Shown here: positions 1,789 to 64,000 of the stretch, in pieces
How positions within the stretch are numbered: position 1 is the first letter of the stretch
Layout: each line of letters opens with the position of its first letter
IMG/VR virus record: IMGVR_UViG_3300030398_000007
DNA: 64,000 nucleotides
DNA from: a virus
Strand: one strand, 5' to 3'
The notes under the pieces: model-generated
What the model saw: only the letters and a program-made list of their open reading frames with translations
Told to the model about the DNA's origin: nothing
The model's database searches: none
Position numbers and translations under genes: made by a program

Positions 1789-1795
1789 GCATTAT

Positions 1796-5669: not shown

Positions 5670-5691
5670 ACCTAATAACATTGGAATATGT

Positions 5692-7263: not shown

Positions 7264-7658
7264 TGCGCCACTTTAAATTGCCAGAAATATTGTTGTTCTT
7301 GTTGATTTTTACGGGGTGTTCAACTTCTGCAAATTTTCGAGCCACTCTTGTGACAAAAACAAAATTGTATCTGAATCCGGTCAAATATCGTGCAGTTGAA
7401 CAGAACGGACATGTACGTGGATACCATTGTCTTGAAGAACCTTTGTTTATAGACGGAGACATGGAAGAATTCATTCGGACAAACGTCATGTCTTTGTCCA
7501 CAGACGTTTTACCGGGAACAATTGCTGTTCGTAATGTTTTTATCAAAGTTGAAACAAAACATTCAGGATTATTTGCTAAAAGGTGCGTATATTTTAATGG
7601 GACAGCCGTTAAACCATTAATTCTATTGAATAATCGAATCCAAAAATTATACAAATAA
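7263..7658 (+). CDS. Lipoprotein (lipobox LIFTGC), hypothetical, between tpsB and tpsA
   Basis: MRHFKLPEILLFLLIFTGCSTS signal peptidase II motif. Confidence 0.5.
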   Translation: MRHFKLPEILLFLLIFTGCSTSANFRATLVTKTKLYLNPVKYRAVEQNGHVRGYHCLEEPLFIDGDMEEFIRTNVMSLSTDVLPGTIAVRNVFIKVETKHSGLFAKRCVYFNGTAVKPLILLNNRIQKLYK

Positions 7659-7740
7659 AAAACATTATCAATTATTTGTTGCAATTTATAAAAATGGTGA
7701 TATCTATAAATAAAGATATCTTTGTCTCAAAGGAGCAATT

Positions 7741-43128: not shown

Positions 43129-43205
43129 TGGCGCCCCTGGCAGGATTTGAACCCGCGACCCTCTCGTTCGTAGCGAGACGCTCTTATCCTCTGAGCTACA
43201 GGGGC
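43129..43205 (-). tRNA. tRNA-Arg (anticodon ACG)
   Basis: Reverse complement gives acceptor gcccctg/caggggc-g-CCA, anticodon stem tctcg/cgaga with loop ctACGaa, T-stem gcggg/cctgc. Confidence 0.8.
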
Positions 43206-43244
43206 ATTAAAGTTTGGATCGTCCTTCGGACTCCAGAATCTTAT

Positions 43245-43320
43245 TGGTGGGTTGCCTCGGAGTCGAACCGAGAGTCTCGCAGCTTAAAAGGCCGGGGTTT
43301 TGCCATTAAACTAGCAACCC
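43245..43320 (-). tRNA. tRNA-Lys (anticodon TTT)
   Basis: Reverse complement gives acceptor gggttgc/gcaaccc-a-CCA, anticodon loop ctTTTaa, T-stem ctcgg/ccgag with loop TTCGACT. Confidence 0.7.
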
Positions 43321-48831: not shown

Positions 48832-49181
48832 TGCCGTATTGGAAAATGAACATTTTTGATATTCTTGCGCTGCTATGGGTTGGTTCAGGTTTGGGCCTTT
48901 TTTGGGAATCCGGGAATAGTCTGTTGCTGCTTCCTGGACCCTTTTGGTTTTTGATTGGGGGAGTATTCTTGGGGCTTGCAATTCAGAGGACAAACATACA
49001 TGGTGTTTTTTAAGAAAAAATCAAAACTGTTTTTAGGCTTGGGAATTCTTTTTGTCTTTGCCTCCATACTTCTCAAGTCGGCAACGGGTTTATCAGACAT
49101 TATTGGGTGGCTAGGCTTGGCTTTTTCTGGACTGGCTTTTATTGGATTGTGGAACACAAACAACACAGAAGGAAACGACCA

Positions 49182-49372
49182 TGAACATTAAAATTATGGC
49201 TTTAGGTGGGATTTGTGTTTTGGCTCTGGCCGGGTGTGGCAAATTAGACAGAACCGTGGCCCATTACAGAGGGTGGTCCGAGATTTGTATCCACGGAGTG
49301 CAGTATCTCCAGTTTTCGAGTGGCGCCTCGGTAGAATATACGCCGGACGGACATGTAAAAAATTGTCAATAA
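49182..49372 (+). CDS. Small lipoprotein (lipobox LAGC)
   Basis: MNIKIMALGGICVLALAGCGK; RBS GGAAACGACC weak; terminator follows. Confidence 0.45.
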
Positions 49373-49405
49373 ATGGGGCCACTTTTCGTGGCCCTTCTTT
49401 TTTCA
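49373..49405. terminator. Bidirectional rho-independent terminator (ggggccacttttcgtggccc + T-run)
   Basis: Hairpin flanked by A- and T-runs between convergent genes. Confidence 0.6.
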
Positions 49406-49440
49406 ATAAAATTCTACATGTTTTTTATATTCTACTGGCT

Positions 49441-51291: not shown

Positions 51292-51494
51292 GTGGCGCCT
51301 CCAAAATATTACCATAGTAGTTGTTATACGATATAATGATCGTACCACAAACTATTCTGGTTGAATCAAAAAGTGGAGACGTTACAGACTGTTTTAAAAT
51401 AGCGAGCGAATGGAATTTTGAGACAACACCATTGGGGCGGCAAAAAACAAAAGACACTTTCGCCGCCACATGGATTTAACCGGCATGGAGAAGA

Positions 51495-53396
51495 CTAAAA
51501 ACCGATCGTCTTTTTTGTTCCATTTGGCATACGGACACTCGTTCCGGTAATTTCTTCAAGAAACGCGGCTCTCATGTTTTGCCAGATTTTTCGTAGGTCC
51601 TCTTCTTTTGTCAAACCTTGTTCGATTGTTTTGACAACCTTATCTGAAATGTGAATATCTTCTGTATCGACGTTCATTTCTTTAGCCAAACGTTTACGCA
51701 TGTTTTTTAGTATTGGTGGAACATGCTCCGGTCGAGGTCTTGGTGTTTCAATGATCTCAAGTCTGGACAACAATGGTTCGTCAATCTTTGACATGTCGTT
51801 GGCTGTCATAATCATATTCAATTTAGACACGTCGATATAACCTTCCAGAAAATCGTCAAATAAATGAGTGGCGTTTCTGTCGAAATAGGCCAAAAGGGCT
51901 TGTTGTGCCGTACCGGCATATCTGTTTTGGCTTTGTTTGTCGATTTCGTCCAATAAAAGTAAGGGATTGGCGACCTTGCAATCTGCAACAAATGACAAAA
52001 TCCGGCTTGGTGTTGGCGTTTCCCACCACCTGCCAAAAGAAGAAACGTTTGCATATCCAATTGACGTACCGGCAAATCCGAACGTGTCAAAAGGAACATT
52101 CAAATATTTTGCAAATGTTGCGGCCCATTCTGTTTTTCCAATTCCTGGAGGTCCAACCAGCAAAATGGGAGGAACTGAAATAACAACTGGTCGATTGGAT
52201 TTTTCGGCAAAATAAAGTTTCCCCTGCAATGATTGAACAATCCACGTTGTTATTTTTTCAAACCATGGAAATTTTGTGTCCAGTTTGTTTCTTATTTCCT
52301 GGAGCTTTTTTTGACCTCCTGAAAATGTAATAAGAGGAAGTTTTTTTCCGGCAGGAAGATTCATTGTGATTCTTTTAAAATCATGAAATCCATTTCTGCC
52401 AGATTCATACGGTTTAAAGCTTTTGACAAAAATATGTGTCGGCATAGATTGTTCGACTTCTTGCATAGTTGTAGAATCTACATAGACAATCTTGTTTGTT
52501 TGTTCCTCTTCTTTTCTCTCTTCGTTTTTCTTTCCCGATCCTCCTTCGTCGGCACTTCTCTTTGCGGACAATTGGTCTTTCAACTTTTCCATTAAATCAA
52601 GTTTTTGCTTCAATAAGTCGATTTGTTCTTTTGAATAATTTTCTTTCTTGATTGATCTATTAAATTGTTTTGTAACGCGTTTAATCTTTTCATTTTCAAA
52701 CACAAAACTCTCTTCATATTTTTTGTCTCCCTCCCAAAAAAAACATGTGTATTTCATTGGGCTTGCCAGAGCCATGGTGTTGTCCACATACAGTCTCCAC
52801 TCGAATGGAGGCTTGACGGGTCCGGTTTTTTCATTCAACTCCCTCAAAAGAAGAATGGAAGAACCGGTTCTTATCGAAAAAGACAAGAGACCATTAGCCA
52901 ATTTGTTATTGAACCCTTCTTTTTCGACATTGATATTTATATAATCGCTGGCGTTTATGACGACAAGATCGGGAGTGCCTCTTTCTTCGCTTATTGAAAA
53001 AAGTGTTTTGGTTATCTCTTCAGTCGAAATGGTCGGAGACATTGTTTCAACGAAAAACAATTCTTGCAGAATCTCTTTTTGAGATTCCGTAAGGTCATTT
53101 AAAAATCGACGCGTTGCGCTTTTAACTGTGGTTTCTCTGTCTCCAATCGAAATATAAAAAACCTTTCTGGTTCTTGGAGCACTTTTATGTAATGAAAAAG
53201 GTTTTTTGGACGAAAGCATTCCGGCCAATTCCGGGTGGCCTCCCGACGCAGTCAGAGCAATCGCTAATCCAATCATATTTTTGTCCGGACTGTCCCCGTG
53301 GAGAATAACTCCAAGCTCCCCTTTGTAAAACCCAAGAAAAATCTCGTCTTTGACGGGATCCGGTATTTGCAGCAATTTATTGATATCCAGGCTCAT
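51495..53396 (-). CDS. Lon-like AAA+ ATPase without protease domain (paralog 2)
   Basis: ILLVGPPGIGKTE, NPLLLLDEIDK, IMTANDMSKIDEPLLSRLEIIETPRP; same architecture as paralog 1. Confidence 0.7.
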   Translation of the reverse strand: MSLDINKLLQIPDPVKDEIFLGFYKGELGVILHGDSPDKNMIGLAIALTASGGHPELAGMLSSKKPFSLHKSAPRTRKVFYISIGDRETTVKSATRRFLNDLTESQKEILQELFFVETMSPTISTEEITKTLFSISEERGTPDLVVINASDYININVEKEGFNNKLANGLLSFSIRTGSSILLLRELNEKTGPVKPPFEWRLYVDNTMALASPMKYTCFFWEGDKKYEESFVFENEKIKRVTKQFNRSIKKENYSKEQIDLLKQKLDLMEKLKDQLSAKRSADEGGSGKKNEERKEEEQTNKIVYVDSTTMQEVEQSMPTHIFVKSFKPYESGRNGFHDFKRITMNLPAGKKLPLITFSGGQKKLQEIRNKLDTKFPWFEKITTWIVQSLQGKLYFAEKSNRPVVISVPPILLVGPPGIGKTEWAATFAKYLNVPFDTFGFAGTSIGYANVSSFGRWWETPTPSRILSFVADCKVANPLLLLDEIDKQSQNRYAGTAQQALLAYFDRNATHLFDDFLEGYIDVSKLNMIMTANDMSKIDEPLLSRLEIIETPRPRPEHVPPILKNMRKRLAKEMNVDTEDIHISDKVVKTIEQGLTKEEDLRKIWQNMRAAFLEEITGTSVRMPNGTKKTIGF

Positions 53397-53482
53397 ACAA
53401 CCTCCAAAATTCTTAAAATGTTTGTCTTTAATTTTGGTGTAAATATATCATAAACAAATATATTTTTCAAGGATATAAACAT

Positions 53483-54133
53483 TCAGTCCAGAACTAAAAT
53501 CCTCCGGCGCTCCAATTGCCTTTTGCATTCTTCTGTATACACGGGATAGGCTTGTGCAATTGCCGCATAAACCTTTCTTCGGATTTCAGCCAATGCCAAA
53601 GACGCTCCGACCTTTCCGGCAATGATCTCCAGGGAATGGTCATATGACGTCAACTCGTGACGGATAAAATTAACCACAATCCTGTCGAGAAAATTTTTGT
53701 CGTTGTTTTTCTTACTGGCAAATTCGCAATCATGGCCGTATTCCATGCTGATATATGCTTTGTGATCGTTGTATGCGTCAATGGCCAGGCTTTTGACTTT
53801 TTCGAACGGCAAGATTTTGACCTGGATTTTCAGTTTCTTAATTTCGGCCATAAGTGCGTCCTTTTTTGTCGTAACGGCTTTTCGCGCAGACGTTTTTCGA
53901 ACGTCCGCCTTGGCTTTTTCTTCCAGAAATTCTGGTGTCTGGCTGACGAATTGGACTCTTGTTCGAAGAAACAATTTTATTGGAGCGGCTGAGGCGAATA
54001 TTGGGTTTGTGGCGGTTTTATCAGGGGCTTGGAGAAATTTCTGGATCAATTTGTCCGTCCACCCCTCGGCCTTGAGACCTTTCAGGCTGACGTACTGTTC
54101 TTTTTCTTCTTGAGATCTTTTTGGTCGCGCCAT
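53483..54133 (-). CDS. Hypothetical basic protein, first gene of the Lon-like operon
   Basis: ORF upstream of and co-oriented with the two AAA+ genes. Confidence 0.35.
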   Translation of the reverse strand: MARPKRSQEEKEQYVSLKGLKAEGWTDKLIQKFLQAPDKTATNPIFASAAPIKLFLRTRVQFVSQTPEFLEEKAKADVRKTSARKAVTTKKDALMAEIKKLKIQVKILPFEKVKSLAIDAYNDHKAYISMEYGHDCEFASKKNNDKNFLDRIVVNFIRHELTSYDHSLEIIAGKVGASLALAEIRRKVYAAIAQAYPVYTEECKRQLERRRILVLD

Positions 54134-54227
54134 GAGTCTTTCCTTTCAAAACGTTTGTCACAATAAATAGCTTGCTATGATAGTATATAATAAATGAGCT
54201 GTTATCGCATTTCGGAACTCTTAAAAA

Positions 54228-54482
54228 ATGGAAAACTCCATGAAAGGTTGTTGCAAAAAACTGTTGAGAAATTCAGGAGATAATCAAGAAGAATCCAGAA
54301 TTGGTTTCGAAAAACTTGAATCAGGTTGTGTCAAGGTCTTTATTGATTTGCCAGACGGATCCCGACATTGGGTTGAAGGACGTTTGGGTGTGATTGAGTA
54401 TCCCTCCAAAAGAAACGCGACCAGGGTGGTGAAAAGAGTCTTGGCTAAAAAGATTGAAAAGGGTTGTGAGGTTCTGAATTAA
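54228..54482 (+). CDS. Hypothetical small protein upstream of the cas operon
   Basis: ORF only. Confidence 0.3.
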   Translation: MENSMKGCCKKLLRNSGDNQEESRIGFEKLESGCVKVFIDLPDGSRHWVEGRLGVIEYPSKRNATRVVKRVLAKKIEKGCEVLN

Positions 54483-54583
54483 ATGTTGAGTCTGGCATAA
54501 GCAGTTTTATGGGTTTTGTTTTGAATTATGCCAAAAATATAAACGATTTAAATATATATTTGTAAAGCACTTTGTCGTTTCTA

Positions 54584-54612
54584 TTGACTTTTGTTGTCAA
54601 TTATGTTATAAC
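54584..54612 (+). promoter_or_regulatory. Sigma70-like promoter TTGACT-N17-TATAAC with overlapping palindrome TTGAC-N7-GTCAA, ~200 bp upstream of cas8f
   Basis: Hexamers and inverted repeat read directly from the sequence. Confidence 0.4.
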
Positions 54613-54812
54613 CATTGCAACAAATGAGTTTTTGTATGGTTTTTGTGGGTCGTTCCTTGAAGGTTTTTTAGAAACGAAACGGTAGCAAATTTTGTATGAT
54701 ATAATATTTAAAAGATAAGGAATGTTCGCAAAACAAAGGTGTAAGATTTAATTTTTTTGTCTAATCTTTTCTTTTTTTAAAAGTATTTTTAAAAAGTCAC
54801 AAGGAAAAATTT

Positions 54813-55946
54813 ATGGCAAAACCAAAAAATTTTAAAAAATTTGTCGCAAGCAAAGAAGATTGTTTTTCCGTATACAACGCTTCGTTTCACCTTTCCGGAA
54901 GGCTAAATCATTCGGAATCTTCTATTGGTATTCGCTACGGTAAAAACGAGGGAATCCTTTTGCCGTATGTTTGTGCTAGAACAATAATTGGGTCTGGTGA
55001 ACTTGTTCCAACGGATTATTTAAACGGTGTGCACGGAGAATCTTTTGGGCAAAAGGTTAGAGATACATTGCATGTTAGAAATCTTCTACTCGATCCCAAA
55101 CTATCGGACGAGCAAAAGAAGCTCCTTCCAACAGAAGAAACCCAACGGACAATACGTGACGCATGGCTTTCCTGGAACCCAAGCCATAAATCCAATGACA
55201 TAGACCTGTTTGATCCAAATTGTAAACAAATTCTTTTACCAGAGAAACTTTCTGACTTTACGAATTACAAGTCTTACACCCCACTTCCTGCTCCAGGCAT
55301 TTCAAAAATGCTACACATAAAATGCAACGATTTTTCAAATACATTAACAGAGTCTAAGGAAGAGAACAAAGAATCTACAACGAATTGCTTCAAATTCTGT
55401 TCAATAGCTTATGGTGGGACTAAACCGCAAAATGTTACGACAATGAGTATAGTCAGAAGCGCGATTGTTGGATTAGCTCCAAAACATAACAAGACTTATG
55501 CAAAATTGTTACGAGCTTTGTATTCTAAAGAAGTTTTTTCGTTATATAACTTCAAAGAAGTTATGGAATCATATTATTCGTGGTTTTTATCAAGAAATAA
55601 CAAGAACAAACATATTGAAAAAATAGAAAATGTTTTGATTGAAAAAATAGTTAAATCAGTAAGTGAACAAATCGAAACTTTTTATAACTCACTATCACAA
55701 AATTTTGATACAGAAGAGATCAAATATGTCACAAATAAAATAAATGACAGATTGCTGTCTGGGATTTGTGATCCTGCTTCCAGAGATTTTGAATGGTTCA
55801 ATATATTATCTTCTGCAATAGTAGAAGAAATGGCTTCTTTCAAATTCGGAAAAAACGGAGAGACAATCTCGTATTCTATTGTTGATAGGAATCGGGTAAG
55901 AACAATCGTTTATAAAACAATTTTAAAACAATATAGAGAAGAATAA
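54813..55946 (+). CDS. cas8f: Cas8f/Csy1-like large subunit (short, 377 aa)
   Basis: First gene of the operon, 1-nt overlap with cas5f. Assignment rests on synteny with csy2-csy3-cas6f; no strong motif recognised. Confidence 0.5.
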   Translation: MAKPKNFKKFVASKEDCFSVYNASFHLSGRLNHSESSIGIRYGKNEGILLPYVCARTIIGSGELVPTDYLNGVHGESFGQKVRDTLHVRNLLLDPKLSDEQKKLLPTEETQRTIRDAWLSWNPSHKSNDIDLFDPNCKQILLPEKLSDFTNYKSYTPLPAPGISKMLHIKCNDFSNTLTESKEENKESTTNCFKFCSIAYGGTKPQNVTTMSIVRSAIVGLAPKHNKTYAKLLRALYSKEVFSLYNFKEVMESYYSWFLSRNNKNKHIEKIENVLIEKIVKSVSEQIETFYNSLSQNFDTEEIKYVTNKINDRLLSGICDPASRDFEWFNILSSAIVEEMASFKFGKNGETISYSIVDRNRVRTIVYKTILKQYREE

Positions 55947-56815
55947 TGACACAATTTTTGCATGTTTCTCACCTTAAAGTAACAGGAGCAAATGTTTTGT
56001 CTGCCTCCTGGCTTGTAAGTCCAGCGCAGGTAATTCCGGCGCTTATGTTTTCCCACAATATGGGACGCAGAACTGGATTCTCACCAACAGGAGTGGCAAT
56101 TGTTCACCATGACTATAATCTGGTAGGCGAATGGTTTTGTGGTGGATTTGGAGCTTATCAACGAACAGAAATTGGGGCTGGCGTTTCTGGAAACAAGGTT
56201 CGTGGACCAAGCCAACCAACGATACTAGCAGACATGGAGTTGTCTCTTTACATAGAATTTGAAGGGGATCCCCCTTCAGAATCGGCACTAAAAAAATTTT
56301 TCGAAGGTGGCATAAGGTTTTCTGGCGGTACTGCACAGATCAGAAAACCAAATTCTGGATATCGCCAAATTGTTGAGGGGGTTAAAAAAGAGTCTGGATT
56401 TTGGATTGTTGACAGAACGGATCTAGTCGACCCCAAACAACCATTAAATTCTATTGTAAACAATATTGGGTTCAAAAACTTCAATAAAGGAAAAGATTCT
56501 TGGCTGTGTCCAGCAGTTTTGGCGCATGTAATGGCTGAAGGCCCTATTGGTACTGGAAGAGAAGATTATCCGCAATATTACGGAGAACCTTGTGTTGGTC
56601 TTGTCCAATATATTTCCGTACACGAGTATAAGGATTTTTGTTCGTCTCAAACAGAACTGTCAAACAGAACAACGCCAATTTTATGGTGGGGAACAATTCC
56701 TGTTTGGAGAATGAACTGGAATGAAGTTCCGGATCTTGACGAGAATCCAGTCAAGATTTTTTTTGTAACACAATCTTTAACACCCATTAAACGAAATGGA
56801 GATCTAAATGTCTAA
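55946..56815 (+). CDS. cas5f: Cas5f/Csy2-like
   Basis: Position between cas8f and cas7f with overlapping stops/starts; length ~289 aa. Confidence 0.5.
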   Translation: MTQFLHVSHLKVTGANVLSASWLVSPAQVIPALMFSHNMGRRTGFSPTGVAIVHHDYNLVGEWFCGGFGAYQRTEIGAGVSGNKVRGPSQPTILADMELSLYIEFEGDPPSESALKKFFEGGIRFSGGTAQIRKPNSGYRQIVEGVKKESGFWIVDRTDLVDPKQPLNSIVNNIGFKNFNKGKDSWLCPAVLAHVMAEGPIGTGREDYPQYYGEPCVGLVQYISVHEYKDFCSSQTELSNRTTPILWWGTIPVWRMNWNEVPDLDENPVKIFFVTQSLTPIKRNGDLNV

Positions 56816-57953
56816 AAAAATCAAAGATTTGCCAGGGGTTTTTGCTCTCACAAAAAGACTTGTTGTAAGCGACGGCGTTTTCACGGCAACAACAGATAAC
56901 GGTTCAAGACAGCCCGTATTCGTTTTTAAAACAGGGCTTCGGGGAACACAGAATCTAAATCCAATGGCTTCAGACAAGGACGAAGTTGGAAATGTGCAGG
57001 AAACACATGTCGCAAAGCTTCCAAATGATACCAAAAACTATACTGTCACATTTTCATTGGGAGCACTCCCGTTGACAGACGTAATTTCGGCATGCGCACA
57101 AAAGCCTGACGAAAAACATATCGACGGAAACGATATGAGACATGCTATTAATACATTTATGACAAGTAATGATTTCGAGCAACTTGTGCTTGAGATTGGT
57201 TGTCGTTTCGCAAGAAATATAGCAAATGGTAGGTGGCTTTGGAGAAATCGGGCAGAAGCCAACTCTGTTAAAATTTCAGTTGCGGTTTTTGGAAGCGGTC
57301 AATCAAAAGGATCCGAAAACTCAATTGAGGTTGAGTTCTATGCACTGTCTATGCCTTTTTCTGATTTCGAAAATTACTCAGAAGACGAAATAAAAATTGG
57401 AAAAGCTTTAGCCAATGGTTTTTTGGGCATTGAAAGGTTCAAGATACTAGTTTCTGCGACTATTGTTCCGTCTGTCAATGGTCGTATTGGAGTATATCCG
57501 TCCGAGAACTATCTCGCCCACAAACCAAAGGGATTTGCCAGATCTCTATATTATATTCCAGGCATAATTCCGGAAGGAGCTGGTTCCGAGATTTGTCTTG
57601 GACAGGCCGCTCTCAGATCTGAAAAAATAGCAAATGCGCTCAGAACATTTGACACTTGGTATCCTGAGTTTTCAAGTATTGGAAAACCACTGGCTATTGA
57701 AGCGAATGGTGCAAGCCTCGATCACGACAGATTCTTTAGAAAAACCTCTGGTAAAAACAAAGATCTTAGCAATAGCAAAGCTTCGGCCTTTACTCTTTTT
57801 TCTCGTTTGGTTTCCGAACCAGAAACATTGACAAAAGAAGAAAAGCTTTTTCTTGTCAGTATCCTTATTCGTGGGGGAGTCTTTCCTGGTGTAAAAAAAG
57901 AAAAGAGAAATAAAAAAACTGAGGAAGACGAAGAAAATGAATCTTCCACCTAA
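56808..57953 (+). CDS. cas7f: Cas7f/Csy3 backbone subunit
   Basis: ANGRWLWRNR motif characteristic of Csy3; 381 aa. Confidence 0.75.
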   Translation: MSKKIKDLPGVFALTKRLVVSDGVFTATTDNGSRQPVFVFKTGLRGTQNLNPMASDKDEVGNVQETHVAKLPNDTKNYTVTFSLGALPLTDVISACAQKPDEKHIDGNDMRHAINTFMTSNDFEQLVLEIGCRFARNIANGRWLWRNRAEANSVKISVAVFGSGQSKGSENSIEVEFYALSMPFSDFENYSEDEIKIGKALANGFLGIERFKILVSATIVPSVNGRIGVYPSENYLAHKPKGFARSLYYIPGIIPEGAGSEICLGQAALRSEKIANALRTFDTWYPEFSSIGKPLAIEANGASLDHDRFFRKTSGKNKDLSNSKASAFTLFSRLVSEPETLTKEEKLFLVSILIRGGVFPGVKKEKRNKKTEEDEENESST

Positions 57954-57983
57954 AATAAACCGTCTAAGAAAAAGGAGGAGACA

Positions 57984-58541
57984 GTGAAGCCTTTAGCCTA
58001 CGTTGATTTTATTTTATCGGAAGCTGGAGACATGGCGATCCCTGTCCTTGCAGGGAAAGTTCTTGGAATATTTCACAGGGTGTGTTCTTTAGGTCATATA
58101 ACTTATGCAATGTCCTTTCCTCGCATGCTAAAGACGGACGATCCTGCGGAAATATTTGGCACGTTTAGGTTTTTTGGCGAGACCAAAGAGGACTTGGCAG
58201 ATCTTGTTAAAAAAATGAAAAATGATTTTTTGATTAGAGATTATACAATTGTTGGGCGGCCAAGAAGCGCACCTGAAAGTTCAGATACATGGGTTAGCTT
58301 TACTCGTTTTCGTATACCAAAAGAAATTAGATCTGGACGATTAAACAATAGATCTCGTGAATACAGATACAATTTGGCGGCAAGTATGCCGTTTATTCCT
58401 TGTTTTAGTTCGTCCACTCAACAAAATTTCAGGATCTATATCGAGACGTTAACCGAAAAAGACCCAAAAAAAGGTGGCGGCACTTTAGACACCTATGGTT
58501 TGTCACACAAAAGAGATCCAATTTTTTTGCCATTGTTTTAA
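57984..58541 (+). CDS. cas6f: Cas6f/Csy4 crRNA endoribonuclease
   Basis: 185 aa; C-terminus GGGTLDTYGLSHKRDPIFLPLF matches Csy4 ...GGFTCYGLSKGGFVPWF; GTG start with AAAGGAGG RBS. Confidence 0.8.
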   Translation: MKPLAYVDFILSEAGDMAIPVLAGKVLGIFHRVCSLGHITYAMSFPRMLKTDDPAEIFGTFRFFGETKEDLADLVKKMKNDFLIRDYTIVGRPRSAPESSDTWVSFTRFRIPKEIRSGRLNNRSREYRYNLAASMPFIPCFSSSTQQNFRIYIETLTEKDPKKGGGTLDTYGLSHKRDPIFLPLF

Positions 58542-58565
58542 CAAGCATACAAAGGACTTAAATGT

Positions 58566-59585
58566 ATGGGAGACACAAAAACAACAAAGAGAGCCGTACT
58601 CTTATCAAAACGTGCCAATATTTTTCTCCTGGAACGAGTAAAAGTTCAGGTCAACGACAATCGCGTTGTGTATCTGACGGATACAATGGAACCAATCGAA
58701 AAACTTTTTAACATTCCGGAAAAGAACACGATTGTCGTTTTACTTGGGCAAGGAACGTCTATTACGTCAAGAGCTGCCAGAATGCTTGCAGAATCTGGTG
58801 TGCTTGTCGGCTTCTGTGGAACGGGCGGATCTCCATTTCTTTCGGAAGAAGATATGACATTTCTTCCTTACTTCAGCGAATACCGTCCTGTTGAATATAT
58901 GCAGCAGTGGGCAAGTCTTTGGTTCGACGAAACAAGAAGGTTGTCTGCCGCCAAAAAACTTCTTAGTTTGAGATTGGAGTATGCCGAAAACATATGGGCC
59001 AAACTTGGGATCTCTGGAATTGTAGTCCCAGGATCATTATTGGATAAAGTGGAATCAGGTATCGCTGCAGCAAAAACAACAACAGAGCTTTTGTCCATAG
59101 AAGGCAATTACATAAAACAGTTGTATCAATATTTGGCAGAAAAATTTGGCGCCAAAGATTTTGCCCGTGTCCATACACGTACTACTGACAGAGACAAAAT
59201 GCTTGCCTCAATGCCTGTATCTTCACAAAAGGTCAATAAATTGTTAACGATTGGCAATTACTTTGCATATGGAGCCGCCGGGTCTGTATTAACGGCTATG
59301 GGAATCAGTTATGCGTTCCCGTTGTTACACGGAAAAACCAGAAGAGGTGGACTAGTATTTGATTTGGCCGATCCAATAAAAGACGCATTTGTACTACCAC
59401 TTGCGTTTTTCATGCAAAAACAATCTCCTAAAGAGTTCAGAGACGAATTGTCGAGCCGATTTGTGGATCACTTGGTTATGGACGACATGTTTGACTTTAT
59501 TGAAAAGATTTTGGCCAATGACAAAAATAAGAGGGGTTGCGAAACGTTAGTTTCTGGTTTAACCGAAAAAGAAGCGCACACATGA
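58566..59585 (+). CDS. cas1: Cas1 integrase (I-F type)
   Basis: SKRANIFLL...NIPEKNTIVVLLGQGTSITSRAARMLAESGV closely parallels I-F Cas1 SKRANLYYL...NIP.ANTTSLLLGTGTSIT. Confidence 0.85.
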   Translation: MGDTKTTKRAVLLSKRANIFLLERVKVQVNDNRVVYLTDTMEPIEKLFNIPEKNTIVVLLGQGTSITSRAARMLAESGVLVGFCGTGGSPFLSEEDMTFLPYFSEYRPVEYMQQWASLWFDETRRLSAAKKLLSLRLEYAENIWAKLGISGIVVPGSLLDKVESGIAAAKTTTELLSIEGNYIKQLYQYLAEKFGAKDFARVHTRTTDRDKMLASMPVSSQKVNKLLTIGNYFAYGAAGSVLTAMGISYAFPLLHGKTRRGGLVFDLADPIKDAFVLPLAFFMQKQSPKEFRDELSSRFVDHLVMDDMFDFIEKILANDKNKRGCETLVSGLTEKEAHT

Positions 59586-62500
59586 AGATTACATTTGTAT
59601 CCGAATGTCAAAATAAAGCCTTAAAACGCACCAGAAGGGTATTGGACGGTTTTGCCACACGGATAGGGGCAAAAACATGGATCGCACACATAACGTTAGA
59701 CGGGTTGACTTCTGTTAGACAAGAACTTTCAAAAACTGCGACAAAAAATACGGCTGTAGCCGCTTTCGATTTTGGCAAAAAACACGTTGAACTATTATGG
59801 GTTGTTGGAAATGCAGAGGCTTTTTCAGACAAAGGTGTTTATCCAGTGGCTACAATTAGCCGGAAAAGCTCCGGTAGAATTATCTCGCCAGTGTCACGAA
59901 TTATTGGACTTTTAGGTGCCATATGTGGACTCAGTCACGATTTAGGAAAAGCGTCAAATGGATTCCAGAATATGATCCGAAATTCTGTTCCTGACAATGC
60001 CAGGCATGAATGGCTTTCGCTTTGCATGCTGGACTCAATATTTGGATCAGAAAACCGGATTACGCTAGCGCAACAAAAAACTTGGGTCGAACATTGGAAC
60101 AATTTGACTGTCAGGAAGAATGCGCCGGACATGGTAGACAGCGTATTTAAATCCGTACAGGTTATTGTGTCTACACACCATGCACCATATGCTCCAGAAA
60201 AAGACCTTGGTCCACCAGACTCTACGCACCACTTGCGGGAACGTACCATTGATTTAGACAACGAACAGAAAAAGCTTTTTTCAGAAAGCCACCAGGAGGA
60301 CTTCAACAAAATTCTTTCAAAAATAGTAAAAACATTTTTTAGGGCGAACAGACTTTCCAACAACTATCTCGAATCAATAACAAAATGGTCTGTTGCCGGA
60401 TATTACGAAGGAATTACCTTGCTCGCCCGCGCCGGTCTTATTTTAGCAGACCATACAATATCTTCCGGAAAAAGCCCTTTAAAAAAAGAATGCCAGGTTT
60501 GCAAAACGACGACAAAATGGCAATTGTGCAAAACGTGTATCTACGCAAATACCAAACGTAATGGCAATTCCGAAGTAAGGACTCCGGATCAACCTCTTTT
60601 CTGGCACCTTGGCGCTGTAGGAAAGACTGCTGGTGAATACGCGTTTAGATATGGTGAGCTTTTAAACTCAAAAAATGCGTTTCAGGGGTTTTCGGAAAAA
60701 AGTCTTGAAGTCTTGCGTTCAGAGACTGAGGTTCCTGTATTTTTATGGCAAAATGAAGCGGTTAATGCCGTTAGGAAATTTAAAAACGAGAAAAACACAA
60801 AAGGCCCGGTTTTAGTATTTAACCTTGCAGGAACCGGAAGCGGAAAAACTCTTACGAACATGAAATTGGTTGCAGCATTAACGCCTGAAAAAAGTCCAGT
60901 TAGAGCTACAATTGCATTGAATTTAATAACCCTAACGACACAAACAAAGGAATCTCTTGTTGAAAATAGCGGAATTGAAGTTGGAGACGTTGAGAGAATC
61001 GGAGGTTCGTACACAAGGATCCAGCTTTTAAAATACTTAGGCAAAAATGGTGAAGTCAAAGAATCTGAGGACGGAGAACTGTTTTTAGAAAATGAAAAAT
61101 TGTTATCAGGAGAGGTTGAAGAAAACAAAGTTTACCGTCTGCCAGATTGGTTGAAAGATTCGTTGAACCTTGGTCCATATCGTGCATATTATGGACTTCT
61201 CGGAGCCCCATTACTTGTAACAACGACAGATCATATTATTTCTGCCGGAGATTTGTGTGAGCAGGGCCACCACGCACTGTCGCTGATTCGTGTTGCCACT
61301 AGTGATCTTATTTTAGACGAAATTGACGAGTATGATCCAGACGCCTTAATCGCCATTTTGCGTATTGTTAGACTTTCCGCTTTTTTTGGAAGGTCTGTCA
61401 TTTGTTCTTCTGCAACAATTCTTGACTCTGTTGCTAAAGCTGTTTATTCGGCTTTTGAATCCGGACTAAACCTTAGACGGTGTGTTCTTGGAGGCGATTA
61501 TTCCGTCAATGTATCCATTGTAGACGATTTGTGCGAACCTCAAACTTTTTCGTTTCAGTCAGGAAATGAGTCTCTGTTTATAAAAGAATATGCAGTCAGA
61601 CTTCTTAAAATTCGTAAAAAACTTTCAGAAAAATCAGTCACCAGAATTATGGAACTTGTAAATTTCAAGCCTACAAGAGAAGATTTTATCGAATCTATTG
61701 TCGAAACAACAAAACGAATGCACGAGAGACATAAATGGAATGGTACTATTGACGGAGAGATAACGCCCCCTGTATCTTTTGGCGTTATACGTATTGCAAA
61801 TGTCAATACATGTCAAGTTGTTGCTAGTGAAATTGCAAAAAGAATGCAAGAAAAAGCCGTAGTTGCCACATACCATGCTAGAGAAATTTTGCTTCAAAGA
61901 ACACTTAAAGAGGTTGAACTCGACACATTGTTGATTAGAAAAAATCCAGAGGTTTGGAAAAATCTTGGAAGATCTCGTCAAGTTAGAAAAATTTTGGAAT
62001 CAGGAAAATATCCAGAAGGCGTTATTTTTATTGTTGTCGCAACACCTGTTGAAGAAGTTGGTCGTGATCATGATTTTGATTGGGGAATTATTGAGCCCTC
62101 TTCGGCCAGATCTATTATCCAGTTAGGAGGCAGGGTAAACAGACACAGACGCCACGAAATTCTAGAACCAAATATAGGCTTGTTGAAATTCAATATGCGT
62201 CATATAAAAAATCTCGAAAATGGCAAATCTGACGATCGTTGTTTTGTTCGTCCGGGGTTTGAAAATAAAAATGTGTTATATCCACATGACGTCGAGAAGC
62301 TATTTAAATGGTCGAGGGAACAAGTTCTTCCTGTCGATTCCAGATTGGCTGACACCACTATTGAAAATACATTTGCCCATTTGGATAATGAAAGCATTAA
62401 TAAAAAACTTGTAATGGCTGAAAAAGCTAGAAACAAATTCAATACGGTTTCTTTATGGAGCGTTCAAGCTTTTTATAAAGATAATTTGTTGAGGAATATA

Positions 62501-62788
62501 CAAAAACAAGAATCATGGAGATTATCAAGAAATGAAATAGGTGCACCGATTTTACAAAAATTGAAAAAAACCACCAGGGGGTGGGAATATGTAGACGAAT
62601 ACAACTCCAATGTTTATACAGAACCATTGCCAAATATGTGGCTTTATAACGAGGCCGAAAACCTTATTGAGATTGGAGAACAGTATAACAAAAGCGAATC
62701 TTTGGGAGCAAAAATTCAAATATATAATCCTGACTTTAAATATTCGTACAAAATCGGATTTGGGTTTTGCGAAGAAAAAAATTTTTAA
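59582..62788 (+). CDS. cas2-3: Cas2-Cas3 fusion (Cas2 domain + HD nuclease + SF2 helicase), I-F type
   Basis: ATGA overlap with the cas1 stop; N-terminal Cas2-like KITFVSECQNKALKRTRRVLDGFATRIG, HD motif LSHDLGKASNGF, Walker A NLAGTGSGKT, DExD LILDEIDEYD. Confidence 0.85.
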   Translation: MKITFVSECQNKALKRTRRVLDGFATRIGAKTWIAHITLDGLTSVRQELSKTATKNTAVAAFDFGKKHVELLWVVGNAEAFSDKGVYPVATISRKSSGRIISPVSRIIGLLGAICGLSHDLGKASNGFQNMIRNSVPDNARHEWLSLCMLDSIFGSENRITLAQQKTWVEHWNNLTVRKNAPDMVDSVFKSVQVIVSTHHAPYAPEKDLGPPDSTHHLRERTIDLDNEQKKLFSESHQEDFNKILSKIVKTFFRANRLSNNYLESITKWSVAGYYEGITLLARAGLILADHTISSGKSPLKKECQVCKTTTKWQLCKTCIYANTKRNGNSEVRTPDQPLFWHLGAVGKTAGEYAFRYGELLNSKNAFQGFSEKSLEVLRSETEVPVFLWQNEAVNAVRKFKNEKNTKGPVLVFNLAGTGSGKTLTNMKLVAALTPEKSPVRATIALNLITLTTQTKESLVENSGIEVGDVERIGGSYTRIQLLKYLGKNGEVKESEDGELFLENEKLLSGEVEENKVYRLPDWLKDSLNLGPYRAYYGLLGAPLLVTTTDHIISAGDLCEQGHHALSLIRVATSDLILDEIDEYDPDALIAILRIVRLSAFFGRSVICSSATILDSVAKAVYSAFESGLNLRRCVLGGDYSVNVSIVDDLCEPQTFSFQSGNESLFIKEYAVRLLKIRKKLSEKSVTRIMELVNFKPTREDFIESIVETTKRMHERHKWNGTIDGEITPPVSFGVIRIANVNTCQVVASEIAKRMQEKAVVATYHAREILLQRTLKEVELDTLLIRKNPEVWKNLGRSRQVRKILESGKYPEGVIFIVVATPVEEVGRDHDFDWGIIEPSSARSIIQLGGRVNRHRRHEILEPNIGLLKFNMRHIKNLENGKSDDRCFVRPGFENKNVLYPHDVEKLFKWSREQVLPVDSRLADTTIENTFAHLDNESINKKLVMAEKARNKFNTVSLWSVQAFYKDNLLRNIQKQESWRLSRNEIGAPILQKLKKTTRGWEYVDEYNSNVYTEPLPNMWLYNEAENLIEIGEQYNKSESLGAKIQIYNPDFKYSYKIGFGFCEEKNF

Positions 62789-62845
62789 AATGGGTAACTC
62801 TTAAAAAAGTGGCTTTTTCTCATGCCAGTATTGAAACATTCTCCT

Positions 62846-63233
62846 GTTATCCACGACATATGTGGCTTAGAAATATGGTTATGGCGGCATGTATGTGCAC
62901 AATATGTTATCCACGACATATGTGGCTTAGAAATTATGGACTCCAGGTAAAGTTCCCCTGGTTCAGTTATCCACGACATATGTGGCTTAGAAATCGCTGG
63001 TGCGAATAAATAAAGTTTGTTGCACGTTATCCACGACATATGTGGCTTAGAAACTGTTCTGTCCCGAAGACCCGCACGCAAGCCAGTTATCCACGACATA
63101 TGTGGCTTAGAAAGGAACCACAGAAAATGGCATTTGAGAGAATGCGTTATCCACGACATATGTGGCTTAGAAATCTCGGCCTGTTCAGAGTGGAATCCGT
63201 CGGGTGTTATCCACGACATATGTGGCTTAGAAA
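62846..63233 (+). CRISPR. CRISPR array 1: 7 identical 28-nt repeats GTTATCCACGACATATGTGGCTTAGAAA, six 32-nt spacers
   Basis: Repeats at 62846, 62906, 62966, 63026, 63086, 63146 and 63206; I-F-like hairpin and CTTAGAAA 3' handle. Confidence 0.9.
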
Positions 63234-63776
63234 AGAAAAATCACGGACGTCTTCCGGGCGAGACACTTGATATCTGGTCTTTTCTTCTATGTATGGTTCG
63301 GCCCCAAACGAATAAATCCGGTCAAGTGACACAAGTCGATCTCCGAGCCACTGGTTCGAGTGCCTTTTGATTTCGGCAGAATCTTTAAACTCGGGATTGA
63401 TTCTCGTCAGAAATTCTATAATGGCATTTTCTGCGTCGCACTCTTCAAGCCAGAGTCGGATCGATTCGACAGCCTTGTTTTTGTCTGATTCTTTTGTGTA
63501 AATCGTAAATTTTGTATTGGTCGGGTAAAAAGAAACGAATGTTACTTTTTCAGAAATGCGAAAAATACTGATACCGAAACTTTTTGGCACAGAGTCATTG
63601 TCTTTCTCAATTGCTCCGTCAAACAATTCAATTATGTCCGTCTTTTTTTCTGGCGGCGTATTTTTAGCTGTTTTCCCAAAAAGAATTTTCAATGTTTCTG
63701 TTTTTGACGTACCAGGATTCAACTCATGAATTTTTTCTGAAATATCAATTGTATTGACAACCATTTTTTTCGCCAA
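63207..63776 (-). CDS. Hypothetical protein convergent on the CRISPR array (annotated C-terminus overlaps the last repeat; the true stop may be upstream)
   Basis: ORF only. Confidence 0.3.
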   Translation of the reverse strand: MAKKMVVNTIDISEKIHELNPGTSKTETLKILFGKTAKNTPPEKKTDIIELFDGAIEKDNDSVPKSFGISIFRISEKVTFVSFYPTNTKFTIYTKESDKNKAVESIRLWLEECDAENAIIEFLTRINPEFKDSAEIKRHSNQWLGDRLVSLDRIYSFGAEPYIEEKTRYQVSRPEDVRDFSFLSHICRG

Positions 63777-63916
63777 GAAACAACATAAACGTCTGTGTCT
63801 CCCACGGCACCAATGGCCGGATCAATGACTCGGAAGGGAAAAACGGGTATTTAGTGCCGTGTCTGAAAAAAATATGATTTAAGTTAATCCTGGCTCTCAA
63901 ATACGACTCCTTGAAA

Positions 63917-64000
63917 ATTTCTAAGCCGCCTTACGGCGGTAAACGTAGACATGCAGACAAAAAGACTGGTCATTTCTTTCTAAGCCGCCTTGCGGCGGTA
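63917..64000 (-). CRISPR. CRISPR array 2 (partial, runs off window end): I-F-like repeat (rc) CGTTTACCGCCG[T/C]AAGGCGGCTTAGAAA, 31-32-nt spacer
   Basis: Two repeat copies (63917-63944 and 63976-64000) separated by a 31-32-nt spacer; opposite orientation to array 1; one-nucleotide loop polymorphism between copies. Confidence 0.6.

What the first reader, a model, noticed from the sequence alone, without database searches (positions are those of the whole stretch)
54813..64000. Type I-F CRISPR-Cas in non-canonical gene order with two convergent arrays carrying different repeats
The csy genes precede the adaptation module (cas8f-cas5f-cas7f-cas6f-cas1-cas2/3), whereas canonical I-F1 is cas1-cas2/3-cas8f-cas5f-cas7f-cas6f. 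Array 1 begins only 57 bp after cas2/3 (a very short leader), and all 7 repeats are identical with no degenerate terminal repeat. A second array ~680 bp downstream, on the opposite strand, uses a different I-F-type repeat (CGTTTACCGCCGTAAGGCGGCTTAGAAA, with a loop variant CGCAAG). It shares only the Cas6f handle GGCTTAGAAA with array 1, so a single Cas6f may process both hairpin variants. Cas8f is unusually short (377 aa).
Basis: partly seen in the sequence, partly recalled or inferred. Interest (0 to 1): 0.6.

Follow-up and report, generated by a model that had tools for sequence, protein, structure and literature searches.

The report
Divergent type I-F CRISPR cassette, orphan mini-array
The window holds a complete but very divergent type I-F CRISPR-Cas system with an unusual gene order, and its "second array" is the tail of a three-repeat mini-array whose repeat type belongs to a different type I-F cassette that occupies this same site in sibling strains of an acid-mine-drainage population.

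Summary
Six cas genes lie in the order cas8f-cas5f-cas7f-cas6f-cas1-cas2/3. After 57 nt comes array 1, with seven identical 28-nt repeats. A second, opposite-strand array is cut by the window end.

Most of the interpretation needs correcting.
- **Gene order:** csy genes ahead of cas1 is the known ADP1-type (I-Fa) layout, seen in 46 of 80 relatives. Only cas2/3 after cas1 is unusual (0 of 80).
- **Leader and Cas8f:** the 57-nt gap and the 377-aa Cas8f are ordinary for this clade.
- **Missing degenerate terminal repeat:** array 1 ends at a deletion junction that also truncated the neighbouring gene. Sibling contigs keep degenerate terminal repeats.
- **Array 2:** it is the trailer end of a three-repeat mini-array of 27-nt repeats (GTGTACCGCCGCAAGGCGGCTTAGAAA).
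- **Its repeat type:** it belongs to a second I-F cassette with its own Cas6f (25% identical), no cas1 and a truncated cas2/3.
- **Where that cassette sits:** in sibling strains it replaces the window's cassette between flanks that are 98.8-100% identical.
- **Beyond the window:** most likely a flagellin gene, not cas genes.

Spacer flanks suggest a TC PAM for the window's system (6/6) and CC for the other repeat type (4/4).

Verdict: new variant of a known kind, moderate interest.

The parts
54228..54482 (+). Small conserved ORF (80-84 aa) of unknown function, upstream of the cassette. It is part of the left flank shared by both cassette types.
   Evidence: Called as an 80-aa gene upstream of csy1 in system I contigs and upstream of cas8f-II in L108. 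No family hit.
54748..54812 (+). Left boundary of the swappable cassette. Homology with system II contigs stops at 54747/54748. The 65 nt up to the cas8f start are specific to the cassette.
   Evidence: L108 1-668 matches window 54081-54747 at 98.8% and then diverges.
54813..55946 (+). cas8f (csy1), 377 aa, very divergent.
   Evidence: Pfam Cas_Csy1 4.5e-6. PADLOC Cas8f 6e-10. A profile of orthologues hits PDB Csy1 at 2.6e-7. Apart from the protein itself (P0001), no protein in 1.84 billion representatives is more than about 34% identical, and full-length matches are 21-29%.
55946..56815 (+). cas5f (csy2), 289 aa.
   Evidence: No Pfam or NCBIfam hit. PADLOC Cas5f 1.5e-9. A profile of 20 orthologues hits PDB Csy2 at 4e-20.
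56808..57953 (+). cas7f (csy3), 381 aa.
   Evidence: Pfam Cas_Csy3 3.4e-56. TIGR02566 scores 177 bits against a cut-off of 157.55.
57984..58541 (+). cas6f (csy4), 185 aa, the crRNA endoribonuclease.
   Evidence: Pfam Cas_Csy4 4e-17.
58566..59585 (+). cas1f, 339 aa.
   Evidence: TIGR03637 4.2e-92, 308.8 bits against a cut-off of 150.
59582..62788 (+). cas2/3f fusion, 1068 aa. Its start overlaps the cas1 stop. A poly-A tract near the 3' end varies in length between strains and moves the stop.
   Evidence: TIGR02562 597 bits against a cut-off of 566. Pfam finds the Cas3_I-F_Cas2, HD and helicase C-terminal domains. Gene calls give 1068 or 1074 aa.
62789..62845 (+). Leader of array 1 (57 nt between the stop codon and the first repeat).
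   Evidence: The last 80 nt before the first repeat are nearly identical in 10 contigs (differences are a poly-A length change and single bases). New spacers accumulate at this end. No sigma-70-like promoter was found.
62846..63233 (+). Array 1: 7 identical 28-nt repeats and 6 spacers of 32 nt.
63233..63234 (.). Deletion junction between the last repeat of array 1 and the middle of a neighbouring gene. It shows AGAAA microhomology.
   Evidence: Window 63234-63939 matches L007 16741-17445 at 95%. The genes that lie between in L007 and L113 are absent here.
63234..63764 (-). N-terminal 177 codons of a 370-aa hypothetical gene ('ORF370'), truncated by the junction. The apparent 189-aa ORF 63207-63776 reads on into the repeat.
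   Evidence: The full-length gene is in L007 (16180-17292), L112 and L113. No family and no detectable homologues.
63918..64000 (-). Array 2, the trailer end of a mini-array of 27-nt type-II repeats. It comprises the degenerate terminal repeat (63918-63944), a 32-nt spacer (63945-63976), and a consensus repeat that the window end cuts (63977-64000).
   Evidence: Identical in sequence, including the spacer, to the 3-repeat array between the flagellin gene and ORF370 in L112 and L113.

Best explanation
**System I (the window's cassette).** Window 54748-63233 is one self-contained type I-F1 CRISPR-Cas cassette of the ADP1-like lineage, in which the csy genes come first. Here cas2/3 additionally sits after cas1.

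**How it most likely works** (inferred from established I-F biochemistry):
- Array 1 is transcribed rightwards from the cas2/3-proximal leader, or by read-through from the operon.
- Cas6f cuts each repeat at the 3' base of its weak 5-bp hairpin. This gives crRNAs with the 8-nt 5' handle CUUAGAAA.
- Cas8f, Cas5f, Cas7f and Cas6f assemble on the crRNA.
- Target binding next to a PAM recruits Cas2/3. The PAM here appears to be 5'-TC rather than the usual CC.
- Cas1-Cas2/3 inserts new 32-nt spacers at the leader-proximal repeat.

**Shown here:** gene content, conserved Cas6f catalytic residues, and spacer turnover polarised toward the leader in the natural population.

**The array 1 trailer.** In this strain the trailer end of array 1 is a microhomology-mediated deletion junction. 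The deletion removed the old degenerate repeats and about 3 kb of neighbouring genes.

**Array 2.** It is not this system's second array by origin.
- It is the tail of a 3-repeat mini-array of 27-nt repeats with a GNRA-type tetraloop.
- That repeat type belongs to a second, very different I-F cassette (system II): cas8f 481 aa, cas5f 270 aa, cas7f 413 aa, cas6f 199 aa, then an array, then a 5'-truncated cas2/3. It has no cas1.
- In sibling strains from the same samples, system II occupies exactly the site of system I, between the same flanks.
- In the window's haplotype the mini-array is therefore most likely orphaned from its own Cas6f. It could be used only if system I proteins cross-react with it.
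For: **System I identity**
- Family and profile hits.

**Lineage and gene order**
- 46 of 80 GTDB relatives have cas1 after the csy genes. These include Acinetobacter baylyi, Moraxella, Oxalobacter and Acidithiobacillus.
- 18 have the canonical order and none has the window's order.
- The literature describes I-Fa as having cas1 last in the operon (PMC7192602, PMC4224351).

**Leader polarity**
- Ten AMD contigs share a nearly identical leader but differ in leader-proximal spacers.
- L001, L002, L003 and L015 share the oldest spacers.

**Deletion junction**
-.

**Array 2 is the mini-array**
- L112 and L113 carry the same terminal repeat and the same spacer, with three repeats in all, lying between the flagellin gene and ORF370.
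- A flagellin of that cluster lies on a 67,416-nt contig. That is the length of the contig reported for every window protein looked up.

**System II**
-.
- Its Cas6f is 25% identical and its Cas2/3 27% identical to the window's.

**Same site**
- L108 1-668 matches window 54081-54747 at 98.8%.
- L102 9082-9177 matches L001 9528-9623 at 100%.
- Both cassettes occur in the same samples.
- The window contains no system II genes.

**PAM**
- Six of six array-1-type spacers with a recoverable flank show TC.
- Four of four type-II-repeat spacers show CC, including two from a mini-array.
Against: - The DNA beyond position 64000 was never seen. The source contig could not be fetched, so 'flagellin next' rests on synteny with L112/L113 and on a contig-length coincidence.
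- The allelic reading rests on short metagenome contigs, which can be chimeric inside arrays (L109).
- Nothing excludes that the window's genome carries system II elsewhere.
- The mini-array co-occurs with system I in two haplotypes (the window and L113). Its leader-proximal spacer differs between L112 and L113, so it may still be in use.
- The shared handle and the shared CC/GG base of the stem make cross-processing by the window's Cas6f plausible.
- The TC PAM is inferred indirectly: four cases come from overlapping spacers and two from diverged chromosomal homologues with 2 and 7 mismatches.
- No true protospacer was found in public phage or viral collections.
Confidence: 0.72

Rival explanations
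1. Array 2 is a working second array of the window's own system. One Cas6f processes both hairpins, and both kinds of crRNA load into the same Cascade.
For: - The 8-nt handle CUUAGAAA is identical in both repeats. So are the C-G/C-G pairs at the base of the stem and the 5' GTT.
- The mini-array is found together with system I in the window and in L113.
- Its leader-proximal spacer differs between L112 and L113.
Against: - The repeats share only 17 of 28 positions and differ in length (27 against 28 nt) and in loop size.
- A dedicated Cas6f exists for this repeat type in the alternative cassette.
- The two mini-array spacers with known targets carry CC flanks like system II, not the TC flanks of array 1.
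- Two other system I haplotypes (L007, L014) retain only a decayed single repeat at this position.
Confidence: 0.22
2. A second complete cas locus lies just beyond the window end, and array 2 is its array.
For: Array 2's leader side points out of the window. In system II contigs an array of this repeat type follows cas6f-II directly.
Against: - In L112 and L113 the same array, with the same spacer, has only three repeats and is followed by about 130 nt and then the flagellin gene.
- A flagellin of that cluster lies on a contig of 67,416 nt, the length of the window's source contig. Only 3.4 kb of that contig lies beyond the window.
Confidence: 0.05
3. Systems I and II are not alleles. They sit together in one genome or on co-resident copies of a multicopy element, with duplicated flanks. 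Cas1-Cas2/3 of system I would then supply adaptation for the cas1-less system II.
For: - Array II spacer sets are completely different between samples, although all share the same junction with the truncated cas3-II. That implies spacer acquisition after cas1 was lost.
- Both cassettes are always found in the same samples.
Against: - Type-II-repeat spacers carry CC flanks while array 1 spacers carry TC. This argues for different adaptation machineries.
- No contig links the two cassettes.
- The 64-kb window holds no system II gene.
- At least 5 kb of right flank would need to be duplicated.
Confidence: 0.15

Closest known systems
Type I-Fa CRISPR-Cas of Acinetobacter baylyi ADP1 and relatives (Moraxella, Oxalobacter, Bilophila, Acidithiobacillus)
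   Same: - cas8f-cas5f-cas7f-cas6f precede cas1.
- The array follows the last gene of the operon after a short gap, with a median of 97 nt.
- Repeats are 28 nt with a 5-bp stem and a ...TTAGAA(A/G) handle, and spacers are 32 nt (PMC7192602, PMC4224351).
   Different: - In these relatives cas2/3 lies upstream of cas8f, divergent in 31 loci and co-directional in 12. In the window it follows cas1, which was seen in 0 of 80 loci.
- Cas7f is only 34-41% identical and Cas8f about 20-25%.
- ADP1 uses a CC PAM (PMC7192602), whereas TC is inferred here.
- The array 1 hairpin is unusually weak at -3.6 kcal/mol.
Canonical type I-F1 (Pseudomonas aeruginosa PA14, Pectobacterium, A. baumannii I-Fb)
   Same: The same six proteins, including the Cas2-Cas3 fusion, Cas6f with His and Ser catalytic residues, a 28-nt repeat and 32-nt spacers (PMC4338279).
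   Different: - The canonical order is cas1-cas2/3-csy1-4 followed by the array.
- Cas7f is only about 29-31% identical.
- The handle is CUAAGAAA rather than CUUAGAAA.
- The PAM is CC.
System II of the same population (contigs L100-L112), the cassette that matches array 2
   Same: - It is a type I-F effector set with Cas5f, Cas7f and Cas6f hits.
- It has the same 8-nt handle.
- It occupies the same chromosomal site and has the same flanks.
   Different: - Its repeat is 27 nt with a GCAA tetraloop.
- Its Cas8f is 481 aa and matches no model.
- Its array sits between cas6f and a 5'-truncated cas2/3.
- It has no cas1.
- Spacer flanks show a CC PAM.
- Its Cas6f and Cas2/3 are only 25-27% identical to system I's, and the one short Cas7f segment that could be compared is about 33% identical.
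Chromosomal self-targeting and island deletion by type I-F systems (Pectobacterium atrosepticum; from my own knowledge, not checked here)
   Same: Spacers with a correct PAM match genes next to the locus. Haplotypes that carry such a spacer lack the target: L107 has a spacer against ORF370 and has lost that gene.
   Different: Here this is inferred from natural haplotypes only. The targets are often perfect matches only in sibling haplotypes.

Membership tests
Type I-F CRISPR-Cas | Cas2 fused to Cas3 (Cas2/3f) | tested here: met
   TIGR02562 scores 597 bits against a cut-off of 566. Pfam finds the Cas3_I-F_Cas2 domain at 1.8e-25, plus HD and helicase C-terminal domains.
Type I-F CRISPR-Cas | Cas7f (Csy3) backbone protein | tested here: met
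   TIGR02566 scores 177.3 bits against a cut-off of 157.55. Pfam 3.4e-56.
Type I-F CRISPR-Cas | Cas6f (Csy4) endoribonuclease with catalytic His and Ser | tested here: met
   Pfam scores 63 bits against a cut-off of 25. TIGR02563 scores 35.3, just under its cut-off of 36.25. His31 and Ser144 are conserved in the alignment.
Type I-F CRISPR-Cas | Cas1 of the I-F (YPEST) clade | tested here: met
   TIGR03637 scores 308.8 bits against a cut-off of 150.
Type I-F1 (as opposed to I-F2 and I-F3) | Separate large subunit Cas8f and separate Cas5f, with an adaptation module present | tested here: met
   - Cas8f: Pfam 26.4 bits against a cut-off of 22.7. PADLOC 6e-10. Profile hit to PDB Csy1 at 2.6e-7.
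- Cas5f: PADLOC 1.5e-9. Profile hit to PDB Csy2 at 4e-20.
- cas1 and cas2/3 are both present.
Type I-F1, canonical layout | Gene order cas1-cas2/3-cas8f-cas5f-cas7f-cas6f | tested here: not met
   The order here is cas8f-cas5f-cas7f-cas6f-cas1-cas2/3. Gene order is a typical feature of the subtype rather than one that defines it.
Type I-F | 28-nt repeat of the CRISPR-DR4 type with a 5-bp stem and an 8-nt 3' handle, and 32-nt spacers | tested here: inconclusive
   The length, stem, handle and 32-nt spacers all fit. The Rfam CRISPR-DR4 score of 19.2 bits for array 1 is well below the gathering threshold of 35. Array 2 scores 32.9.
Type I-F | 5'-CC PAM (a characteristic of the subtype, not part of its formal definition) | tested here: not met
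   Six of six array-1-type spacers with a recoverable 5' flank show TC. The evidence is indirect and was not tested functionally.
I-Fa (ADP1-type) sub-lineage | cas1 is the last gene of the operon and is followed by the array, with cas2/3 upstream of cas8f | tested here: not met
   cas1 does follow cas6f, as in I-Fa. However, cas2/3 follows cas1 and is the gene next to the array. None of 80 relatives shares this order.
I-Fa (ADP1-type) sub-lineage | Closest relatives by Cas protein similarity belong to that lineage | tested here: met
   The best Cas7f relatives (34-41% identical) all have the csy-first layout. Loci with the canonical layout are only 29-31% identical. No formal Cas1 tree was built.
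Orphan or remnant CRISPR array (array 2) | Repeats of a type whose own cas genes are absent from the vicinity | tested here: met
   The window holds no system II genes. The matching Cas6f-II and the main array of this repeat type are found on other contigs. The rest of the genome was not available.

The most novel reading that the evidence does not exclude
Two deeply divergent type I-F cassettes are exchanged as alleles at one site within a single natural population. They use different PAM codes (TC against CC) and different repeat hairpins (28 nt with a pentaloop against 27 nt with a tetraloop). They aim spacers at genes in each other's flanks and so drive deletions next to the arrays. The mini-array that stays behind after a swap is still processed and extended in trans by the incoming system. 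On this reading the window's Cas6f and Cas1-Cas2/3 do service a foreign-type array.
Probability: 0.25. Interest if true: 0.7.

Novelty: new variant of a known kind. Interest (0 to 1): 0.5.

Why it matters
If the TC PAM holds, this would be a natural type I-F effector with altered PAM recognition, linked to a Cas8f that has no close relative. That bears on how Cas8f reads the PAM, and it could widen the targeting range of I-F-based tools.

The population picture may be more valuable than the locus itself. It shows two interchangeable I-F cassettes at one site, a conserved mini-array left behind, spacers with correct PAMs against the neighbours' flanking genes, and repeated deletions starting at array ends. 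Together these form a natural test case for three questions:
- how CRISPR-Cas loci are replaced;
- how orphan arrays arise;
- how self-targeting or sibling-targeting reshapes the surrounding DNA.

If none of this holds, the locus is simply one more divergent I-F1 system.

Tried and rejected
**Extending the window**
- Cas1 and Cas7f look-ups returned only contigs of 10 kb or less.
- The flagellin on the 67,416-nt contig and a long Cas2/3-II variant were not on record.
- ORF189 was not on record and has no homologues.

**Searching for the array 2 repeat**
- The exact repeat gave no hit in genome contigs or metagenome contigs.
- Only a looser pattern found it.
- Nothing was found in viral contigs.

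**Searching for protospacers**
- 74 spacers against the phage collection gave no match.
- Seven spacer-derived patterns against IMG/VR gave no match.
- None of the window's own spacers matches the window or any fetched locus outside the arrays.

**Testing whether TC is a feature of the whole clade**
- 91 spacers from the two nearest relatives (Modicisalibacter, Halomonas) gave no match in the phage collection.

**Other attempts**
- A single-sequence PDB search with Cas6f found nothing.
- A literature search for Csy4 loop tolerance found nothing usable.
- Promoter scans of both leaders did not exceed chance.

**Ideas rejected**
- 'Huge phage' origin, suggested by the 12-tRNA array. The window instead carries two-partner secretion, HipA and TnpB genes and lies next to flagellin and glycosyltransferase genes.
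- Array 2 as a mere terminator hairpin. L112 and L113 have three spaced copies with differing spacers.

Full report
**1. What is in the window**

Positions 54813-62788 carry six co-directional, tightly packed ORFs.
- Pfam and NCBIfam identify Csy3/Cas7f (3.4e-56), Csy4/Cas6f (4e-17) and Cas1f (TIGR03637, 4.2e-92).
- They also identify a Cas2-Cas3 fusion (TIGR02562, 597 bits against a cut-off of 566).
- The first gene gives only a weak Csy1 hit and the second none.

I tested the first two genes in two further ways.
- PADLOC's I-F models call them Cas8f (6e-10) and Cas5f (1.5e-9).
- Profiles built from orthologues in 19 related loci hit solved Csy1 (2.6e-7) and Csy2 (4e-20) chains.

In an alignment with relatives and with P. 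aeruginosa Csy4, Cas6f keeps the catalytic His, Ser and Tyr.

The true cas2/3 start is ATG 59582, overlapping the cas1 stop.

**2. The arrays**

Array 1 (62846-63233, + strand):
- It has seven identical 28-nt repeats and six 32-nt spacers.
- It starts 57 nt after the cas2/3 stop.
- Its hairpin is weak, at -3.6 kcal/mol, with four Watson-Crick pairs and a possible G-U pair.

Array 2:
- On the minus strand at 63918-63944 and 63977-64000 lies a different repeat, with a strong CCGCC/GGCGG stem and a four-base loop.
- The period is 59. Contigs that carry many copies show the unit to be 27 nt with 32-nt spacers and the consensus GTGTACCGCCGCAAGGCGGCTTAGAAA.

Rfam's I-F repeat family is the best match for both repeats in these orientations, but both score below threshold.

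**3. Where the window comes from**

- The exact Cas proteins occur on many short contigs from acid-mine-drainage biofilm metagenomes, from JGI and Logan.
- They also occur on NCBI contig ACXJ01012470. The ACXJ accession is cited in two Richmond Mine papers (PMC2745766, PMC3219967).
- The 8.1-kb cassette is 99.4-100% identical across these contigs. The DNA to its left is only 81-99% identical.
- The organism is unresolved. One partial homologue of a neighbouring gene is labelled Leptospirillum sp. Group IV. However, the window has about 42% G+C, far below a published Leptospirillum value of 58.6% (PMC4664748).

**4. Gene order in context**

I fetched 80 loci from species-representative genomes using a Cas7f alignment, and placed the other cas genes by tblastn.
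- The relatives closest to the window (34-41% Cas7f identity) include Acinetobacter baylyi, Moraxella osloensis, Oxalobacter, Bilophila and Acidithiobacillus.
- Nearly all of these have csy1-4 followed by cas1 and then the array. In them cas2/3 lies upstream of cas8f, on the opposite strand in 31 loci and on the same strand in 12.
- The canonical order appears only in the distant group (29-31% identity; 18 loci).
- None of the 80 has cas2/3 directly after cas1 downstream of cas6f.

The window's order is therefore a further permutation inside a known non-canonical lineage. It is not a departure from everything known.

**5. The 'odd' details**

- *Leader.* In 43 relatives the gap from the last cas gene to the first repeat has a median of 97 nt, range 30-676. 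A gap of 57 nt is short but within range. In sibling contigs a poly-A length change moves the cas2/3 stop and shrinks the gap to 41 nt.
- *Cas8f length.* Orthologues measure 359-475 aa. Remote homologues found in 1.84 billion representatives are mostly 340-400 aa. What is unusual is divergence: the best full-length matches are 21-29% identical.
- *No degenerate terminal repeat.* Sibling contigs do have them. L001-L003 end in GTTGTCC..., and L113 ends in three progressively decayed repeats.

In the window the last repeat abuts position 63234. That position corresponds to the middle of a 370-aa gene that is intact in L007, L112 and L113.
- The apparent 189-aa ORF between the arrays is the N-terminal 177 codons of that gene, reading on into the repeat.
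- The junction shares AGAAA microhomology.
- Compared with L113, about 3 kb is missing: a small membrane-protein gene, a 430-aa gene with a sigma-70 region 4 domain, a lytic transglycosylase gene and half of ORF370.
- Other strains show different junctions at the same array end, in L007, L014 and L001. Deletions starting from the array are therefore recurrent.

**6. Array 1 is active**

The ten contigs share a nearly identical leader but have almost entirely different leader-proximal spacers. Several share the oldest spacer. This is the expected signature of ongoing acquisition at the cas2/3-proximal end, and it fixes the direction of transcription.

**7. What array 2 is**

The exact repeat was absent from both large collections. 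A looser pattern found two ACXJ contigs, and cluster look-ups led to more contigs.

These contigs reveal a second I-F cassette, system II, arranged as follows:
- cas8f-II (481 aa, no model hit);
- cas5f-II (270 aa), cas7f-II (413 aa) and cas6f-II (199 aa);
- a leader and an array of 27-nt repeats;
- a cas2/3 that has lost either the first 26 positions of its Cas2 domain (L101) or the whole domain (L102-L107);
- no cas1.

Its Cas6f is 25% identical and its Cas2/3 27% identical to the window's.

System II contigs share both flanks with system I contigs.
- L108 1-668 matches window 54081-54747 at 98.8%.
- L102 9082-9177 matches L001 9528-9623 at 100%.
- Both cassettes occur in the same samples.

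The simplest reading is two alternative cassettes at one site.

The window's array 2 is not the main system II array.
- In L112 (a system II haplotype) and L113 (a system I haplotype), a three-repeat array lies between the flagellin gene and ORF370.
- That array has exactly the window's terminal repeat and the window's spacer.
- Its leader-proximal spacer differs between L112 and L113.
- Two other system I haplotypes (L007, L014) keep only one decayed repeat there.
- A flagellin of the same cluster is recorded on a 67,416-nt contig, the contig length reported for every window protein looked up.

Beyond position 64000 I therefore expect one more repeat, about 130 nt of leader, and then flagellin. 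I do not expect cas genes. The window contains no system II gene.

**8. PAMs and targets**

No spacer matched public phage or viral collections. Comparing 154 spacers with each other and with the fetched loci still gave flanks.

For array-1-type spacers the two bases 5' of the protospacer are TC in six of six cases.
- Two flanks are read from overlapping type-II spacers.
- Two come from a pair of array 1 spacers that overlap on opposite strands.
- Two come from diverged chromosomal homologues with 2 and 7 mismatches.

For type-II-repeat spacers the flank is CC in four of four cases.
- Three of these are perfect 32/32 matches.
- ADP1's I-Fa system uses CC (PMC7192602).

The type-II targets are themselves notable, because they lie in genes flanking the locus.
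- L106 spacer 6 matches window 53814-53845 exactly, in the 216-aa gene just upstream of the cassette.
- L107 spacer 2 matches the same gene in L007 and L002, but has three mismatches to the system II haplotype L102.
- A mini-array spacer in L107 matches ORF370 exactly, and L107 lacks that gene.

This fits targeting of sibling haplotypes, or self-targeting followed by escape through deletion. It is only correlative.

**9. Can the window's Cas6f use array 2?**

- Both repeats share the 5' GTT, the two C-G pairs at the base of the stem, and the whole CUUAGAAA handle.
- In P. aeruginosa Csy4 the base-specific contacts are at the 3' base of the stem. This is from my own knowledge (Haurwitz 2010, Sternberg 2012) and was not checked here.
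- Cross-processing therefore cannot be excluded.
- Against it: a dedicated Cas6f-II exists, the mini-array spacers carry CC flanks, and the array has decayed in two system I haplotypes.
- I put functional cross-use at about 0.2-0.25.

**10. Unexplained**

System II has no cas1. Yet its main array has entirely different spacer sets in different samples, all ending at the same junction. This needs either an adaptation module in trans with CC preference or array exchange by recombination.

In L109 a main-array spacer is followed by the mini-array's spacer. This is either an inversion between the inverted arrays or an assembly chimera.

**11. Verdict**

The classification as I-F is right. Most of the 'anomalies' have ordinary explanations.

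What remains is a new variant of a known kind:
- a very divergent I-Fa-like I-F1 cassette with a gene order not seen in 80 relatives and a probable TC PAM;
- an orphaned mini-array next to it, whose own I-F cassette replaces it in sibling strains.

Interest is moderate, and higher for the population story than for the locus itself.

Noticed in passing
window 49817-49848, 53814-53845; L007 5700-5731; L112 3337-3368: Spacers from sibling haplotypes match genes that flank the CRISPR locus, and the matches carry the appropriate PAM. The targets are the 216-aa gene, an AAA ATPase, ORF370 and flagellin. Three matches are perfect 32/32. L107, which carries the anti-ORF370 spacer, lacks ORF370.
   Followed up: partly
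array-1-type spacers in L001, L012, L014, L113 (flanks inferred); window array 1 by extension: The 5' flank is TC in 6 of 6 recoverable cases. It is CC in 4 of 4 for spacers next to 27-nt repeats. This points to a non-canonical PAM for the window's I-F system.
   Followed up: partly
L102-L107 (system II contigs): The system II array has wholly different spacer sets in different samples, yet there is no cas1 and the junction with the truncated cas3 is always the same. The source of adaptation is unknown.
   Followed up: partly
window 54748-62845 compared with 49001-54747: The cas cassette is 99.4-100% identical across contigs whose left flank is only 81-99% identical. This suggests the cassette spread recently across diverged backgrounds.
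   Followed up: partly
window 62770-62788: A poly-A tract at the 3' end of cas2/3 has 7 A in the window and 9 A in L001, L007 and L014. The difference shifts the stop codon (1068 against 1074 aa) and changes the gap to the first repeat from 57 to 41 nt.
   Followed up: partly
window 930-1999 and 43129-43320: There is a tight array of 12 tRNA genes plus a further tRNA-Arg/tRNA-Lys pair. The same window holds RNA repair or modification genes: RtcB (25444-26643), an RNA ligase (20280-21359) and a CCA-adding-like enzyme with an HD domain (13866-15770).
   Followed up: no
window 35492-36811, 41315-42523, 45238-46389, 5488-11196: The window also carries a HipA kinase toxin gene, two IS605-family TnpB genes and a two-partner secretion pair (ShlB-like transporter plus a TPS-domain exoprotein). 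ORFs of 150 aa or more are sparse and the G+C content is about 42%. This may be an island or an extrachromosomal element.
   Followed up: no
window 49441-53396: Two tandem paralogous AAA ATPase genes (635 and 633 aa) and a 216-aa orphan gene lie directly upstream of the cassette. They are conserved in L007.
   Followed up: no
L001 9750-9778: A lone hairpin, GTTTTCCCCGCATGCGCGGGGGTGTTTCC, lies just upstream of the glycosyltransferase gene. It resembles a type I-E repeat.
   Followed up: no
L109 4282-4711: The main system II array runs directly into the mini-array's spacer (the one seen at window 63945-63976). This is either an inversion by recombination between the two inverted arrays or an assembly chimera.
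   Followed up: no
L019, L021, L053 (Modicisalibacter, Halomonas, Halomonadaceae): The closest genome relatives by Cas7f have cas6f followed directly by the array. No cas1 was detected within 10 kb, which resembles system II.
   Followed up: no
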